64,000 nucleotides of DNA from Deinococcales bacterium (GTDB taxonomy: Bacteria > Deinococcota > Deinococci > Deinococcales > JAAFIG01), in assembly GCA_043778225.1 (NCBI GenBank), contig JAYWGM010000051.1, positions 24,861 through 88,860 on the forward strand. Reading direction: 5' to 3'. Numbering within the stretch: the stretch's first letter is position 1; each line of letters begins with the position of its first letter. Made by a program: the position numbers. Shown here in pieces: positions 36,001-39,000 of the stretch.

Positions 36001-39000
36001 GTATTTTCATGTTTTACTCCAGAATCTAGGTCACTCTGCATCGTCGGTAGGGATAACCGCCGCCACAATTTCGGTTTCGTCGGTCAGTACGGCTTTGACC
36101 TCGAGCCGACCAACTTCACGCACCCGATGTGCAAACAGCTTATTCAACAAACCATAATTCGGATGTCCCGCAAGGCTCGAGACCACCTTTTTTGGCGCGA
36201 TAGGCTCAAGGTCGCCAAAATCCATCTCGAGCGCTGCAAGTGGTGGCGCATCGGGTAGCGTTTCTAAATCAAAAGTCTCGAGCGACCCAAGCCCGTCAGG
36301 TGCATCTTTAGGGTCAAGAAGCGACCCAAGCGACCCAAGCCCGTGAGGTGCATCTTTAGGGTCAAGAAGCGACCCAAGCCCGTGAGGTGCATCTTTAAGG
36401 TCAAGAAGCGACCCAAGCCCGTGAGGTGCATCTTTAAGGTCAAGAATGTCTGTGGTCAAGACTGCTACTGACTCCAACTCAAAAGACGACCCATACTCTG
36501 TGGGCAATGGCGCATCATCATCAAAGGGAGGTATATCTTCATAGACCGAAGGCTCGTCAACTGGCTCGAGAAACACCATCGGTTCTGGCTCGAGAGGCGC
36601 TACTTTTTCTGGCTCGAGAGCTGCCACAAATTCGGCTGGGCTAAATAAGCCAGCTTTGGCTTGGCTACTACCAAGTGCATCAAAAGCCAAATCTGAAGCG
36701 ACTTGAGACGCAGACTGACTGATTGGCTCGAGCAGTAGAAGCTCGAGAAGTAATTTTGCTGGTGGAGCTTGGATTTGACTTGACGCGGGTTCTGGCTGTA
36801 CAGGCAATGGTAAAGCCTCGAGAACCGCCGCCACAACTCGCGCCGCAGGTTGCGAGGTCGTTGGGTTATGAAGGGCTCTTGAATTTTTTTTTGTGCCGTC
36901 TGGCATCACCAATTCAAGTGCCACACCATGCCCAAGCACTTGCTGGGTTAAGGCTGCTAATTCCTCGAGCTTAGAAGCCACTTGCTCGGCGTGCCATTTG
37001 TTCTTGGGGTTGCTGTACTCAATCACCAAAGTATCGGCGCTCAGATGCCCAACCGCTTCTTTGAGAATCGCCCTAAGCCGCAAATCGGCTTTGAGAATCA
37101 CGTCTGCCCAGCCTTTAGAGCCTAAAGGCGCAACTGCCTTTGGCGCTTCTGGGGCGGCTCGAGGCGGAGCGGATGGTGCGGTTTCAAACGGCGGCTCATC
37201 CGATTCCAAAACAGGCACAACCGGACGGCGCGGCGCTCGAGCCGTCGGGTCAAATTCTGGCACAGGGCGCTGCCCACTGGCTTTTAAGCCCTCGTCTACC
37301 ACTTTTTGGAATGCCCCACGGACTTGCTTCTCGAGGTTTGCCACCCGAGATTCAAGGGCGGGCGAAACCGTGCCTGTTTCTGTTGCCGTTTCTGGCGCAA
37401 GCATGGCTTTGGTAAACGCCATTTCTAAAGCCATTAAATCCGAAGCCCGAGCAAAACGCCCGTCTTCTTCGTCAAGCGCCCGAATCAGGCGCAGCAAATG
37501 CACTTCGCCAAAAGTTTCGGCAACATTTTTAGACAAGCCAAGCTGGGCGTGTAACTGGTCACGCAAGGCAATTTTGACCCGTTCGGTGATGGTGCGTGGC
37601 GCAAAACCATCCGAATAAAAGGCAGTTAAATTCTGCATTAGGCGCTTGGTGTCGCCTCGAGCCAAGGACATCGCTAAGGCTTCTACACGGTCTTGAGGCG
37701 GTAAACCCAGCGCTCCTTCGACCATCTCGAGCGTTAAATTAGGTTCGCCCGAAGCCAGCAGCCGCTCGAGTAAACTTTCGCCGTCGCGCATTGCCCCATC
37801 GGCGGCTCGAGCAATTAAGTTTAAGGCTTGCGGCGAAGGATTGACCCCTTCCGCCATAGCGGTTTTTAAGAGTTTGCCTGCAATTTCATCCGCCGATAAA
37901 CGCCGAAAACGGTAATGCTGGCAACGACTAAGAATCGTGGCGGGTAAGCGCTCTGGTTCGGTCGTGGCAAGCACAAAAACCGCATGGCTCGGTGGTTCTT
38001 CAAGGGTTTTTAAGAGTGCATTAAAAGCACTTTTACTCATCATGTGGGCTTCATCGAGGATATAGACTTTTTTATCGCCACGCATCGGTTGTAGGGCTAC
38101 TTTTTCGCGCAAGTCTCGGACATCATCAACGCTGTTGTTGCTGGCGGCATCAATCTCGAGAACATCGGGATGTCTGCCAGCAATCACGCTTTTGCACGAG
38201 TCGCACGTGCCGCATGGTTTGACCCCCAGCGTTTCGCAATTGACGGTCATGGCAATCAGCCGCGCCGTGGTGGTTTTGCCTACGCCGCGTGGACCGCTAA
38301 ACAGATAGGCATGACCAATTCGCCCGCGTTCCAAGGCTGGTCGCAGCACATCTTTAACGTGTTCTTGCCCAACGACTTCATCCCAGTGGATTGGTCTCGA
38401 GCGTTGATAAATCGCGGTCATGGTTTCATCCTATCTTTTCCTCATGAAACAGGTAATTTGTCTTTCTGGGTACTTGATTTTGGCTTGACAAATTCAAGTT
38501 TGGGTGTATCATCTGGCTAGAGAGGGCTGTGCATATAAAAGCCGCCCACCCGCCACTTATTAAGGTGGCGGTTTTTTATTTTCTAACCACCGATTGAGTG
38601 CAGTAATTTGATACTCCTGTAAAAGTGGTCTATAGATGCTTTGATTCGCAAGGTAAAAGATGTGCCGTAAAAAAGTAAAAGCATTAAAATTCAAGTTGTT
38701 TTCTGATTGGAATTGCAGTACCATCGCAAAGTTTGTTTCATAGAACACAATCAAATCAGCAAGACTAAGCTCAGTATTTGTGGTTCTTAACTCATTGAAA
38801 AATCTTTCGATGGCTTTGATTTTAAAGTGTACATCGGGGAATTTATTCCATAAAAATCCTGTGAGAGCAACAGTATCTAAACTTAGGGTAGATGATTTTT
38901 GATTGATAATATCATCGAATATTATTTTCTCGGCTGCTTGCAAAAAAACAGTATTTTCGTTTTTTATGGTCATAAATTCTCTATCTGCCAGTTCAAAGAG

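What a model noticed while it worked through the whole genome (the two positions that open the first line are those of the whole stretch)
36280..36446. 39-nt hairpin repeat that spreads in tandem and inserts in frame into essential genes
A 37-41-nt repeat (GCGACCNNGCCCG-N3-AGGTGCRTNTTTANGGTCAAGA) occurs about 120 times in the genome, singly or in head-to-tail runs, mostly between genes but also inside reading frames of dnaX (four tandem copies, C51:61140-61306), dnaE, purL, metH and two subunits of the second NDH-1, without breaking them, and in the anticodon loop of a tRNA-like gene. I read it as an active miniature mobile element of a new family that tolerates, or exploits, translation as 13-residue linker inserts, the Deinococcota counterpart of Rickettsia palindromic elements. 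New would be the element family itself, its tandem growth inside a replication gene and its use as a marker of very recent genome change.
Evidence so far: nhmmer with a 7-copy seed: 121 hits at E 1e-3 or better (167 at E 1), 14 neighbour pairs 45 nt or less apart, 18 within 300 nt of contig ends, 18 inside called genes, of which 10 lie in six Pfam-bearing genes: g01889 dnaX x4, g00366 dnaE, g00126 purL x2, g03135 metH, g03173 NuoC-like, g03176 NuoI-like. The outer stem covaries: GACCAT/ATGGTC (22 copies), GACCCT/AGGGTC (8), GACCCA/AGGGTC (18 or more), GAACC/GGTTC, GATCCC/GGGATC, GACTCA/TGAGTC. Protein alignments with five family members: the 54-residue run LLD(L/P)KDAPHGLGS x4 in DnaX and the ERPSPSGASLGSRE insert in the NuoI-like protein are absent from all five orthologues, and the frames stay open. 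The same 37-40-nt unit, also in tandem, is [...]
(Added by a program. Inside this text positions count along the whole contig: contig position 24,861 is position 1 of the stretch shown here. "Call 12" and the like, gene names such as g00115 and contig names such as C1 are that model's own, and its searches are not shown. The text may have been shortened before it was handed on; [...] marks where a part breaks off. The agent that wrote the report below was given it as the finding of a first reader that could run no searches.)

Follow-up and report, generated by a model that had tools for sequence, protein, structure and literature searches.

The report
Tiny mobile repeat nesting in hairpins
A 37-39-base repeat found only in one uncultured family of Deinococcus relatives sits in the tips of other DNA hairpins, including hairpins inside essential genes where it is read through as a short extra peptide; small repeats inside genes are known elsewhere, but this family and its nesting habit appear to be new.

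Summary
Window 36282-36445 carries four head-to-tail units (period 39, one 48) inside dnaX, read antisense as LLD(L/P)KDAPHGLGS. All 11 DnaX orthologues compared lack them.

My own profile finds 115 copies in the genome (E<=1e-3) and none in a reversed-genome control. Copies inside purL (two sites), dnaE, metH and the NuoC-like and NuoI-like genes, and one in a tRNA-like anticodon loop, are confirmed.

The unit occurs in 17 of 18 genomes of one uncultured Deinococcales family. It was not found in 150 other Deinococcota genomes or in viral contigs.

New here:
- The unit inserts, without target duplication, near hairpin apices: GTAG-type REP palindromes already lying in frame in these genes, and its own GNNA loop, up to three deep.
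- Tandem arrays arise by local duplication.
- An IS110-family element inserts at that same loop position in 8 of 8 insertions.

In-frame REPs in replication genes are already published, so this is a new variant of a known kind. The mobilising enzyme is unidentified.

The parts
36031..38421 (-). dnaX (DNA polymerase III tau/gamma), 796 aa, host gene of the array
   Evidence: ORF. Pfam DNA_pol3_delta2 4.6e-48, DNAX_ATPase_lid and DnaX_C. The conserved C-terminal ~85 residues align with 11 orthologues after the insert.
36282..36319 (+). unit 1 (38 nt, loop GTCA), read antisense in dnaX
   Evidence: (E 9.7e-12)
36320..36329 (+). one A plus a 9-nt partial 5' copy (GCGACCCAA), which makes the single 48-nt period
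   Evidence: 9-nt repeat AAGCGACCC, 2.4 copies, 36319-36340
36330..36367 (+). unit 2 (loop GTGA)
   Evidence: (E 3.3e-11)
36369..36406 (+). unit 3 (loop GTGA, TTTAAGG variant), identical to unit 4
36408..36445 (+). unit 4
36452..36462 (+). GTGGTCAAGAC, resembling the 3' end of a unit; possible remnant of an older copy (read as VLTTD in DnaX)
   Evidence: Sequence. Resemblance to the CAC/GTG subfamily 3' end. Inference only.
57084..57120 (+). solitary intergenic unit embedded in an (AAAAGGTTA)n 9-mer array
   Evidence: (E 8.7e-10); TRF 57063-57084

Best explanation
The unit is a non-autonomous, REP-like miniature mobile element.

Anatomy:
- It is 37 nt plus 1-2 terminal bases, so a typical insert is 39 nt.
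- The layout is GCG-[5-6-nt arm]-GCCC-GNNA-GG(T)GC-NNN-TTT-[complementary arm]-CAAGA(CA).
- The outer arms are free to vary as long as they pair.
- The unpaired motifs and the inner GCCC/GGTGC stem are fixed, and the two loop bases NN are hypervariable.

Proposed mechanism:
- An enzyme acting in trans places the unit, in either orientation and without target-site duplication, at or within a few bases of the apex of DNA hairpins. The weak site preference is A^GG.
- Targets seen are GTAG-type REP palindromes, the 3' edge of its own GNNA loop, and a tRNA-like anticodon loop.
- I infer strand transfer on extruded or single-stranded hairpins by a structure-reading enzyme. The RAYT-like HUH/Y1 protein is the leading candidate, but it is unproven.

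What happens after insertion:
- A unit can be amplified locally by slippage or unequal exchange into head-to-tail arrays. This is how the four dnaX copies arose.
- Copies inside genes survive only where the added length is a multiple of three, no stop codon arises, and the site is a flexible linker. Several such sites had already been opened by an older in-frame REP.

Shown: the repeat family, its restriction to one bacterial family, filled and empty sites, the apex position, absence of a duplication, self-nesting, and the identity of array neighbours.

Inferred: the direction of events (gain rather than loss, by parsimony), single-strand targeting, the identity of the enzyme, and translation of the inserts.
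For: Family and chance: 115 hits against 0 in the reversed genome.

Distribution:
- The covariance model R1 finds 15-156 copies in 17 of 18 genomes of the same family.
- One weak hit occurs in 12 genomes of four other families.
- 0 of 150 further Deinococcota genomes have a match.
- An exact 22-mer occurs in 45 loci of 185,579 species genomes, all titled Deinococcales or Deinococcota MAGs.

Filled and empty sites:
- dnaX array: absent in 11 of 11 orthologues.
- dnaE: a 39-nt insert between GTAGGGGCGG and GGCTTGCCTCGCC in G000; 4 of 4 same-genus genomes carry the bare palindrome.
- metH: 39 nt after GTCA, before GG. Filled with the same unit at the same site in G000, G001, G003 and G006. G007 is empty. 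G005 has a differently arranged unit.
- purL site 2: 78 nt, a unit inside a unit, in a REP loop; 5 of 5 relatives are bare.
- NuoC-like gene: G003 has 39 nt in a REP apex and G001 is bare.
- REP upstream of the RAYT-like gene: G000 and G006 are filled with different subfamilies; G001 and G007 are bare.
- None of these junctions shows a duplication.

Apex targeting:
- Contiguous flank stems of 6 bp or more occur in 15 of 92 blocks against 1.5% of 20,000 random positions.
- A GTAG tag lies within 26 nt in 28 of 93 blocks against 83 of 5000 random positions.
- 11 of 92 full-length copies lie in another unit's GNNA loop.
- In other genomes, 15 of 40 copies are nested and 18 of 40 are REP-tagged.
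- A triple nest occurs at C26:30399-31676.
- Flank logo: position -1 is A in 55 of 87 copies; positions +3 and +4 are G in 49 and 52 of 87.

Arrays: 6 of 8 head-to-tail neighbour pairs are identical and 2 differ by 1 nt. Among 4352 pairs from different loci, 1.3% are identical. The window also holds seven unrelated local tandem repeats with periods of 23-27 nt.

Candidate enzyme: a RAYT-like ORF scores Pfam Y1_Tnp 36 bits (cut-off 23) and NCBIfam REP_Tyr_transpos 58.9 bits (cut-off 80). Homologues occur in 16 of 18 family genomes. They are missing in G002, the one same-genus genome with no units, and also in G005, which has 70 units at 84% completeness.
Against: - No enzyme is tied to the unit. 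RAYT-like homologues of similar closeness (58% identity in G022) occur in genomes without any unit.
- IS605-type Y1_Tnp is present in only 6 of 11 family genomes searched.
- The unit lacks the GTAG or CGTC tag of known REPs.
- No excision product, circle or raw-read polymorphism was seen. Only assembled contigs were available, and they stop inside the array.
- About half of the blocks show no convincing host hairpin. Some sit in A-rich 9-mer arrays.
- Gain versus loss is argued by parsimony among species whose proteins are 72-87% identical, without a rooted tree.
- The same REP::unit composite recurs with identical junctions in several loci and genomes. Part of the copy number may therefore come from passive spread inside REPs or from gene conversion.
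- The hairpin is no more stable than shuffled sequence.
- Open frames are not proof of translation.
- All genomes involved are metagenome bins. G000 is 89% complete.
Confidence: 0.55

Rival explanations
1. The unit does not move by itself. It is a loop module of GTAG-type REPs. It spreads passively when REP::unit composites are copied by the RAYT system, and by gene conversion from a filled REP to an empty REP of the same type. SbcCD-type breaks at hairpin tips repaired from a paralogous copy would be one route.
For: The dnaE copy and the C30:34488 copy share an identical unit and identical REP arms. The composite GTAG..GCGAG|unit|CAG(C/T)ATGCCTCGCCC recurs in five loci from other genomes: L083, L088, L117 and L118, with L078 as a near variant. 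RAYT-like genes are present in 16 of 18 family genomes. 28 of 93 blocks are REP-tagged.
Against: Units also lie where no REP arms exist to provide homology: the dnaX array, the tRNA-like anticodon loop, 9-mer arrays, and the loops of units of other subfamilies. The REP upstream of the RAYT-like gene carries different unit subfamilies in G000 and G006. REPs and RAYT-like genes occur in sister families that have no unit at all.
Confidence: 0.2
2. The unit is mobilised by the IS110-family (DEDD) recombinase with a bridge-type guide RNA. The unit would be a minimal donor that mimics the joined ends of that insertion sequence.
For: The IS110-family element lies between GCCCGNNA and (A)GGTGC of a unit. 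The right junction shows this in 8 of 8 insertions from 8 genomes and the left junction in 7 of 8. Nested units occupy exactly this position. Both inserts begin with GC, end with ACA, and are bracketed by NA dinucleotides. The 185-nt leader of the IS carries CCGTAAG and GCACCT, which match the two sides of the target. The bridge-RNA architecture itself is recalled from the literature and was not read here.
Against: The recombinase was found in only 7 of 18 family genomes. It was not found in G006, G007 and G011, which are 92-94% complete and hold 54-132 units. A guide RNA specific for the unit loop cannot explain insertion into REP apices or a tRNA loop with other sequences. A 39-bp double-stranded circle is physically implausible as a donor. 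Rfam has no model to confirm the RNA.
Confidence: 0.1
3. The unit is a host-beneficial motif, such as a binding site, a transcript stabiliser or terminator, or an RNA element. It would be kept by selection rather than being selfish DNA.
For: The consensus is almost identical across five genera: top scores of about 64 bits occur in ten genomes. The inner hairpin with a GNNA loop is invariant, at 99.4% of cells paired. Between co-directional genes, 27 units are sense and 11 antisense.
Against: Copies occur in both orientations inside coding regions, inside one another, in a tRNA-like anticodon loop, and inside transposase genes: C45, C73 and the G005 Y1 gene. No Rfam family matches. There is no enrichment between convergent genes: 9 convergent, 10 divergent, 38 co-directional. 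The fold is weak.
Confidence: 0.08
4. Chance similarity or an assembly artefact.
For: Public contigs stop inside the array, so its copy number is not independently confirmed.
Against: 0 hits in the reversed genome. 0 of 100 shuffles match. The same family appears in 17 other independently assembled genomes. Array-specific 51-nt contigs have 0 differences at depths of 34.2 and 14.9, beside flanks at 30.
Confidence: 0.01

Closest known systems
REPs / REPINs with RAYT transposases, including intragenic GTAG- and CGTC-tagged REPs (PMC3733652, passages read; PMC3116915 and PMC3333891, abstracts only)
   Same: Size class of 20-40 nt. Imperfect palindrome whose stem co-varies. More than 100 copies. 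Mostly intergenic. Lineage-restricted and vertically persistent. Occasional in-frame copies, singly or in groups, in replication and repair genes including DnaE. A Y1/RAYT-like gene is present in the genome.
   Different: No GTAG or CGTC tag. Mostly single or head-to-tail rather than inverted dimers. It lives inside the apices of GTAG REPs and inside its own loop. RAYT-like homologues also occur in sister families that lack the unit.
Rickettsia palindromic elements (RPE); review PMC10969869, passage read
   Same: Palindromic repeats inserted in frame into unrelated housekeeping genes without breaking them, encoding a conserved peptide.
   Different: RPEs are about 150 bp according to that passage, and they are alphaproteobacterial. 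This unit is 37-39 nt and has no sequence relation to them. It is read in at least five of six frames depending on the site. It mostly enters pre-existing palindromes.
REP-targeting insertion sequences (IS1397, ISKpn1, IS621, ISPpu9/10, ISPa11); PMC1525189, passages read
   Same: Mobile DNA that breaks a palindromic repeat at one fixed point. Here an IS110-family element does so in the unit's loop in 8 of 8 insertions.
   Different: Those are full insertion sequences of 1 kb or more that carry their own transposase. The unit itself is 37-39 nt and carries nothing.
E. coli BIMEs (mosaics of REPs); PMC2817692, abstract only
   Same: Composite, modular clusters of short palindromes.
   Different: BIMEs alternate REP orientations with linkers. 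Here the mosaics are true nestings (unit in unit in unit) and head-to-tail duplications.
IS200/IS605-derived palindrome-associated elements (recalled, not read)
   Same: No terminal inverted repeats in the classical sense, no target duplication, hairpin-dependent.
   Different: Those insert 3' of a fixed 4-5-nt word and are 100 nt or longer. Here only position -1 (A, 55 of 87) and a GG two to four bases beyond the unit's 3' end (positions +3 and +4) are weakly preferred.

Membership tests
REP / REPIN-RAYT | 20-40-nt imperfect palindrome, high copy number, mostly extragenic | tested here: met
   37-39 nt; 115 copies; outer stem of 5-6 bp in 82 of 94 copies; most blocks lie outside long ORFs.
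REP / REPIN-RAYT | conserved GTAG (or CGTC) tetranucleotide at one end | tested here: not met
   The invariant ends are GCGA... and ...TCAAGA. GTAG belongs to the host palindromes, not to the unit.
REP / REPIN-RAYT | cognate single-copy RAYT gene flanked by the repeat | tested here: inconclusive
   A RAYT-like ORF lies at C32:27219-27881. A unit lies in a REP 24 nt upstream in G000 and G006 and 51 nt upstream in G018, out of 24 loci. Homologues also occur in unit-free families.
REP / REPIN-RAYT | inverted dimers (REPIN) as the replicating form | tested here: not met
   8 head-to-tail full-length pairs. Only two close inverted pairs appear in the hit list: C79:72423/72501 and C28:97958/98046.
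MITE | terminal inverted repeats matching a parent insertion sequence | tested here: not met
   Only a subterminal 5-6-bp stem of variable sequence. Flanks of long-flank copies match only other short repeats, with no long IS. The ends of the IS110-family element differ.
MITE | target-site duplication | tested here: not met
   Junctions in dnaE, metH, NuoC (G003), the RAYT-upstream REP and the own-loop nestings show none. The 2 nt after AAGA equal the 2 nt before the unit in only a minority of nestings.
Rickettsia palindromic elements | about 100-150-bp palindromic element of Rickettsia encoding a conserved peptide in frame | tested here: not met
   In-frame insertion is met. Size (37-39 nt) and taxon (Deinococcales only) are not. 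This is analogy, not membership.
IS200/IS605-type (PATE-like) | fixed tetra- or pentanucleotide immediately 5' of the element, and a Y1 transposase in the genome | tested here: not met
   The left flank is variable apart from A at -1 in 55 of 87 copies. IS605-type Y1_Tnp is present in 6 of 11 family genomes and is not flanked by units in G000.
IS110-family donor mimic | recombinase and guide RNA present wherever the element is active | tested here: not met
   The junction architecture is shared. The recombinase was found in only 7 of 18 family genomes.
CRISPR repeat | repeats separated by unique spacers of similar length | tested here: not met
   Units abut head to tail with 0-2 nt between them. 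The genome's CRISPR repeat is a different sequence present 44 times.

The most novel reading that the evidence does not exclude
These genomes hold a three-tier ecosystem of mobile hairpins. GTAG REPs sit in frame in essential genes. A 37-nt 'hyperparasite' recognises hairpin tips by shape and inserts at the 3' edge of loops: REP apices, its own GNNA loop, a tRNA anticodon loop. An IS110-family element carries a leader with guide-like words for the unit's loop and uses the unit as its dedicated landing pad. If the unit is moved by a structure-reading single-strand enzyme, or by a guide-RNA recombinase, it would be the smallest self-nesting mobile DNA described. It would also be a natural series of filled and empty sites for working out how REP-class elements are copied.
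Probability: 0.35. Interest if true: 0.8.

Novelty: new variant of a known kind. Interest (0 to 1): 0.6.

Why it matters
How REP-class repeats are copied is still poorly understood. Most families offer few clean filled and empty sites. Here one genus gives at least six, at single-base resolution, several of them inside conserved genes, plus self-nesting up to three deep. That fixes the insertion point and shows there is no duplication.

The finding also shows that linkers of essential replication and metabolic enzymes (DnaX, DnaE, PurL, MetH) can absorb successive layers of mobile hairpins. This is relevant for annotating these metagenome bins, where such peptides inflate and fragment gene calls and break assemblies.

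The strict use of the unit's loop by an IS110-family element offers a natural target and guide pair for the bridge-RNA recombinase field.

Tried and rejected
- A fuzzy regex census timed out and was replaced by nhmmer. Two scripts failed on my own errors.
Only DNA folds were obtained.
- Rfam: nothing meaningful around the array (two chance-level hits, E 0.27 and 2.3) and nothing on the IS110 leader.
- Genome contigs with the N-containing pattern gave 0, while the exact 22-mer gave 45 loci. I treat the first result as a limit of that scan.
- Viral contigs: 0 for two 22-mers.
- The whole-genome scan for PF01797 found only the IS605-type gene and missed the RAYT-like ORF. Family scans of genomes are therefore not exhaustive.
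- RAYT as the specific mobiliser: not supported by distribution.
- The 2-nt target-duplication idea was checked on nestings and rejected.
- Replication-strand bias: no link with local GC skew (Fisher p 0.82) and a weak link with gene strand (p 0.12).
- Sequencing runs: no RNA holder is listed. The four runs laid are contigs that do not bridge the array, so there is no information on copy-number polymorphism or expression.
- The two tRNA-like genes on C19 with 40-50-nt inserts are not unit insertions: no hit at E<=10 there.
- Not used: structure prediction, complex prediction, and homologue searches in the large protein collections. The question did not need them.
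Full report
**1. The observation**

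Window 36282-36445 holds four head-to-tail copies of GCGACCCAAGCCCG-(TCA/TGA)-GGTGCATCTTTA(G/A)GGTCAAGA. Three periods are 39 nt. One is 48 nt because of a 9-nt partial 5' copy at 36321-36329.

The array lies in a 796-aa minus-strand ORF (36031-38421). That ORF is DnaX by Pfam: DNA_pol3_delta2 4.6e-48, ATPase lid, DnaX_C. The array is read antisense as LLD(L/P)KDAPHGLGS.

An alignment with 11 orthologues, seven from the same genus, shows the 55-residue block only in this genome. It sits in a variable acidic and proline-rich linker just before a conserved C-terminal domain.

**2. Genome census**

A profile built from the four window copies, then rebuilt from 87 hits, finds 115 copies at E<=1e-3 and 177 at E<=1, on 51 of 107 contigs. 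The reversed genome gives 0 at E<=1. Of the 115, 94 are full length, in 64 distinct sequences.

Pfam on the 20 longest ORFs that span a copy confirms the host genes:

| Gene | Place | Copies |
|---|---|---|
| purL | C4:13260-17024 | two sites |
| dnaE | C15:4282-8340 | one |
| metH | C86:26023-29859 | one |
| Complex1_30kDa (NuoC-like) | C86:63457-64491 | two |
| 4Fe-4S (NuoI-like) | C86:67148-68287 | two |

Copies also lie near the ends of three truncated transposase ORFs (DDE_5, rve, HTH_Tnp_1).

Removing the unit plus one base at C28:45893-45928 yields a tRNA-Ile(TAT)-like cloverleaf with the unit in the anticodon loop.

**3. Anatomy**

The layout is GCG-[arm]-GCCC-GNNA-GG(T)GC-NNN-TTT-[arm']-CAAGA.

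- The outer arms pair over 5 bp in 44 copies and 6 bp in 38 copies, of 94. They match better than permuted arms (0 of 5000).
- On 40 distinct copies, essentially one pair varies: CG 18, AU 8, UA 1, with 13 unpaired. The covariation score is 0.078 against 0.051 in shuffles (0 of 500), and 89.8% of cells are paired against 24-49% when the partner is slid.
- Copies from other genomes show many more compensated arm types.
- The inner four pairs are almost invariant, and the two loop bases are hypervariable.
- Energetically the hairpin is unremarkable. As DNA it folds at -2.2 to -4.7 kcal/mol with z between 0.20 and -1.14.
- The consensus is open in four of six frames, read directly from the sequence. 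A random 13-codon frame would be open about half the time, so this is not striking.

**4. Distribution**

A covariance model (R1) finds 15-156 copies in 17 of 18 genomes of the same family, covering five genera.

- One same-genus genome, G002 (2.3 Mb, 82% complete), has none.
- Twelve genomes of four sister families give one weak hit.
- None of 150 further Deinococcota genomes has a match at E<=1e-5.
- An exact 22-mer occurs in 45 loci among 185,579 species genomes, all in records titled Deinococcales or Deinococcota MAGs.
- It occurs in no viral contig.

The top-scoring sequence is the same in ten genomes across genera whose DnaX proteins are only 54-61% identical. The consensus is therefore held constant over long times.

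**5. Filled and empty sites**

- **dnaE.** G000 has 39 extra bases between GTAGGGGCGG and GGCTTGCCTCGCC. Four same-genus genomes carry the uninterrupted palindrome GTAGGGGCG(A/G)GGC(A/T)TGCCTCGCCC at the same codons, read as VGA(R/G)(H/L)A(S/L)P.
- **purL site 2.** The same kind of palindrome is bare in five relatives. In G000 it holds 78 bases, which parse as one unit split at its own loop by a second unit.
- **purL site 1.** Relatives have the bare palindrome. G000 has a different arrangement that includes a unit.
- **metH.** A 39-base insert follows GTCA and precedes GG in G000, G001, G003 and G006. G007 is empty. G005 carries another unit in another arrangement.
- **NuoC-like gene.** G001 has the bare palindrome. 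G003 has it with a 39-base antisense unit at its apex. G000 has a roughly 115-base composite of two units in another small hairpin. The same composite lies in the NuoI-like gene.
- **Palindrome upstream of the RAYT-like gene.** It is bare in G001 and G007 and filled in G000 and G006, with units of different subfamilies.

None of these junctions shows a target duplication. Added lengths are 36, 38, 39, 39, 39 and 78.

Other species carry units at other sites of the same genes: G006 purL twice, G007 dnaE, and G017 DnaX in sense orientation.

**6. Where the unit lands**

- In G000, 11 of 92 full-length copies with flanks lie in the loop of another unit, directly after GNNA and before GGTGC. In 8 of the 10 with both halves of the outer unit visible, the added length is 39.
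- 28 of 93 blocks have a GTAGGG or CCCTAC tag within 26 nt, against 83 of 5000 random positions.
- Perfect flank stems of 6 bp or more occur in 15 of 92 blocks, against 1.5% of random positions.
- Others lie in (AAAAGGTTA)n arrays.
- Across 87 copies with distinct flanks, position -1 is A in 55 and C in 2. The first four bases after AAGA read (A or CA)GG.
- Forty copies from other genomes give the same picture: 15 nested, 18 REP-tagged, 4 in 9-mer arrays.
- At C26:30399-31676 three units are nested like Russian dolls. Paralogous copies of the same longer repeat show the one-unit stage (C98, C12, C71) and the three-unit stage (C101, C39, C85).

About half of the blocks have no host hairpin that I can recognise.

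**7. Arrays**

Of 8 head-to-tail full-length neighbour pairs, 6 are identical and 2 differ by one base. Among 4352 pairs from different loci, 1.3% are identical. Nested pairs, in contrast, combine different subfamilies.

Arrays therefore grow by local duplication, and nests grow by insertion. The window also has seven unrelated local tandem repeats with periods of 23-27 nt. Three are in frame inside ORFs of 259-400 aa. Local duplication is a general habit of this genome.

**8. Candidate enzymes**

- **IS605-type Y1 gene.** The whole-genome Pfam scan found one Y1_Tnp gene, beside a TnpB-sized ORF and not flanked by units. This type occurs in 6 of 11 family genomes searched.
- **RAYT-like ORF.** Looking between two nearby copies, I found a second Y1 protein that the scan had missed: a 221-aa ORF at C32:27219-27881. 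It has an HVH motif, Pfam Y1_Tnp at 36 bits (cut-off 23) and NCBIfam REP_Tyr_transpos at 58.9 bits (below its cut-off of 80). It is split by two in-frame GTAG palindromes. Homologues occur in 16 of 18 family genomes, but not in G002 or G005. They also occur in 5 of 12 genomes of sister families that lack the unit. The GTAG palindromes are thus ordinary REPs with a RAYT-like partner, and the unit is an extra layer confined to one family.
- **IS110-family element.** A single IS110-family gene (PF01548 1.6e-23, PF02371 1.4e-18) lies in the innermost loop of the triple nest. Related copies were found in 7 of 18 family genomes and in none of the 12 genomes of sister families searched. In eight insertions from eight genomes, the right end is followed by AGGTGC in 8 of 8. 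The left end is preceded by GCCCG-NNA in 7 of 8; one left end was not located. Its 185-nt leader contains CCGTAAG and GCACCT, matching the two sides of the target. That this resembles a bridge RNA is my recollection of the IS110 literature and was not read here.

**9. What is known**

- Di Nocera and colleagues (PMC3733652; passages read) describe GTAG- and CGTC-tagged REPs inside genes. Many of those genes are replication and repair genes, including DnaE. Dimers and clusters encode 20-82 residues. The paper does not mention Deinococcus.
- A MITE review (PMC10969869; one passage read) summarises in-frame RPEs of about 150 bp.
- Tobes and Pareja (PMC1525189; passages read) show REPs as fixed-point targets of IS3, IS110, IS4, IS256 and IS5 family elements.
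- My searches for Deinococcus small repeats, and for nested REPIN/RAYT hairpin-loop insertion, listed nothing that describes this unit or REP-in-REP nesting. I read only listings and abstracts for most of those hits, and subscription journals are not covered.

**10. Verdict**

Four points change it:

- In-frame tolerance is partly inherited from older REPs.
- In-gene REPs in replication genes are not new.
- Transposase candidates do exist.
- Tandem growth is duplication, not repeated insertion.

Three things appear new: the family itself, its insertion near hairpin apices without duplication (including self-nesting), and its role as the dedicated target of an IS110-family element. The enzyme and the strand chemistry remain inferred.

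I saw CTCGA abutting the first unit but did not test any link.

Noticed in passing
G000 C26:30429-31608 (L189 about 1471-2650); L190-L196 in seven other genomes: An IS110-family element of about 1.2 kb sits exactly between GCCCG-NNA and (A)GGTGC of a unit. The right junction shows this in 8 of 8 insertions and the left in 7 of 8. Its 185-nt leader holds CCGTAAG and GCACCT, matching both sides of that target. Several copies carry stop codons.
   Followed up: partly
L162:1820-2482 (-) = G000 C32:27219-27881; L163-L186: RAYT-like Y1 genes carry GTAGGG or CCCTAC palindromes inside their own reading frame, between the HUH and Tyr parts. At least one tag lies inside the gene range in 23 of 24 loci and both in 18 of 24. 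This includes loci from sister families without the 37-nt unit.
   Followed up: partly
L003, L002, L123-L132, L158-L159, L026: GTAG-type palindromes (GTAGGGGCGAGGCATGCCTCGCCC) lie in frame as VGARHASP or VGAGLASP in dnaE, purL (two sites), the NuoC-like and NuoI-like genes, and G007's dnaX. In dnaE and purL they are conserved in place across the genus.
   Followed up: partly
L148 / L151 (G005 C401:8645-9024): A Y1_Tnp gene in G005 is split at profile position about 66 by a unit (G005:C401:8799-8835) and carries TGA stops.
   Followed up: partly
window 19866-19953, 28724-28789, 31880-31950, 46667-46740, 47788-47877, 52556-52638, 55670-55816, 62196-62289: Seven locus-specific tandem repeats with periods of 23-27 nt, plus (CAGCA)x18.8. 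The 24- and 27-nt ones lie in open frames of 259-400 aa; the 23- and 25-nt ones lie outside long frames. Only the 55670 array has a relative elsewhere in the genome (C89).
   Followed up: partly
window 57058-57140 and genome-wide: (AAAAGGTTA)n-type 9-mer arrays are among the commonest words of the genome (the 17-mer GGTTAAAAGGTTAAAAG occurs 36 times) and often flank units. The unit's 3' end GGTCAAGAA looks like one period of them.
   Followed up: no
G000 C19:9212-9477: Two adjacent tRNA-like genes, called Leu(GAG) and Arg(TCT) by aragorn -i, each carry a 40-50-nt insert at position 32. The insert is not the unit.
   Followed up: no
G000 C1:42949-43993 and C28:51303-52288: aragorn -i predicts tRNA-Gly(ACC) and tRNA-Phe(GAA) with 954- and 890-nt inserts in the anticodon loop. 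These may be false positives or intron-bearing tRNAs.
   Followed up: no
L131/L134 (G003 C102:31809-37115) and L132 (G007 C409): dnaE of G003 and G007 has an extra 1.3 kb (G003) and 1.3 kb (G007) in frame at residue ~913 (open frames of 1772 and 1645 aa against 1352). The size is intein-like; it was not examined.
   Followed up: no
G000, genome-wide: A 29-nt CRISPR-like repeat (CGGTTCACCCCCGCGTGTACGGGGAATAC) occurs 44 times. It is unrelated to the unit.
   Followed up: no
L013, L014 and orthologues L152-L161: The NuoC-like and NuoI-like proteins both have long Ala/Pro-rich C-terminal extensions ending in the same conserved tail (E)EKP(V/K/R)NPKIKRWEP(K/R)(S). G006's NuoC-like protein has a further ~80-residue insert.
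   Followed up: no
G000 C28:45480-46160: The interrupted tRNA-Ile(TAT)-like gene lies in a repeat-rich stretch beside another odd tRNA-like call (4-base anticodon, C28:46067-46151). Many tRNA species occur twice in the genome, which may point to a mobile tRNA cluster.
   Followed up: no
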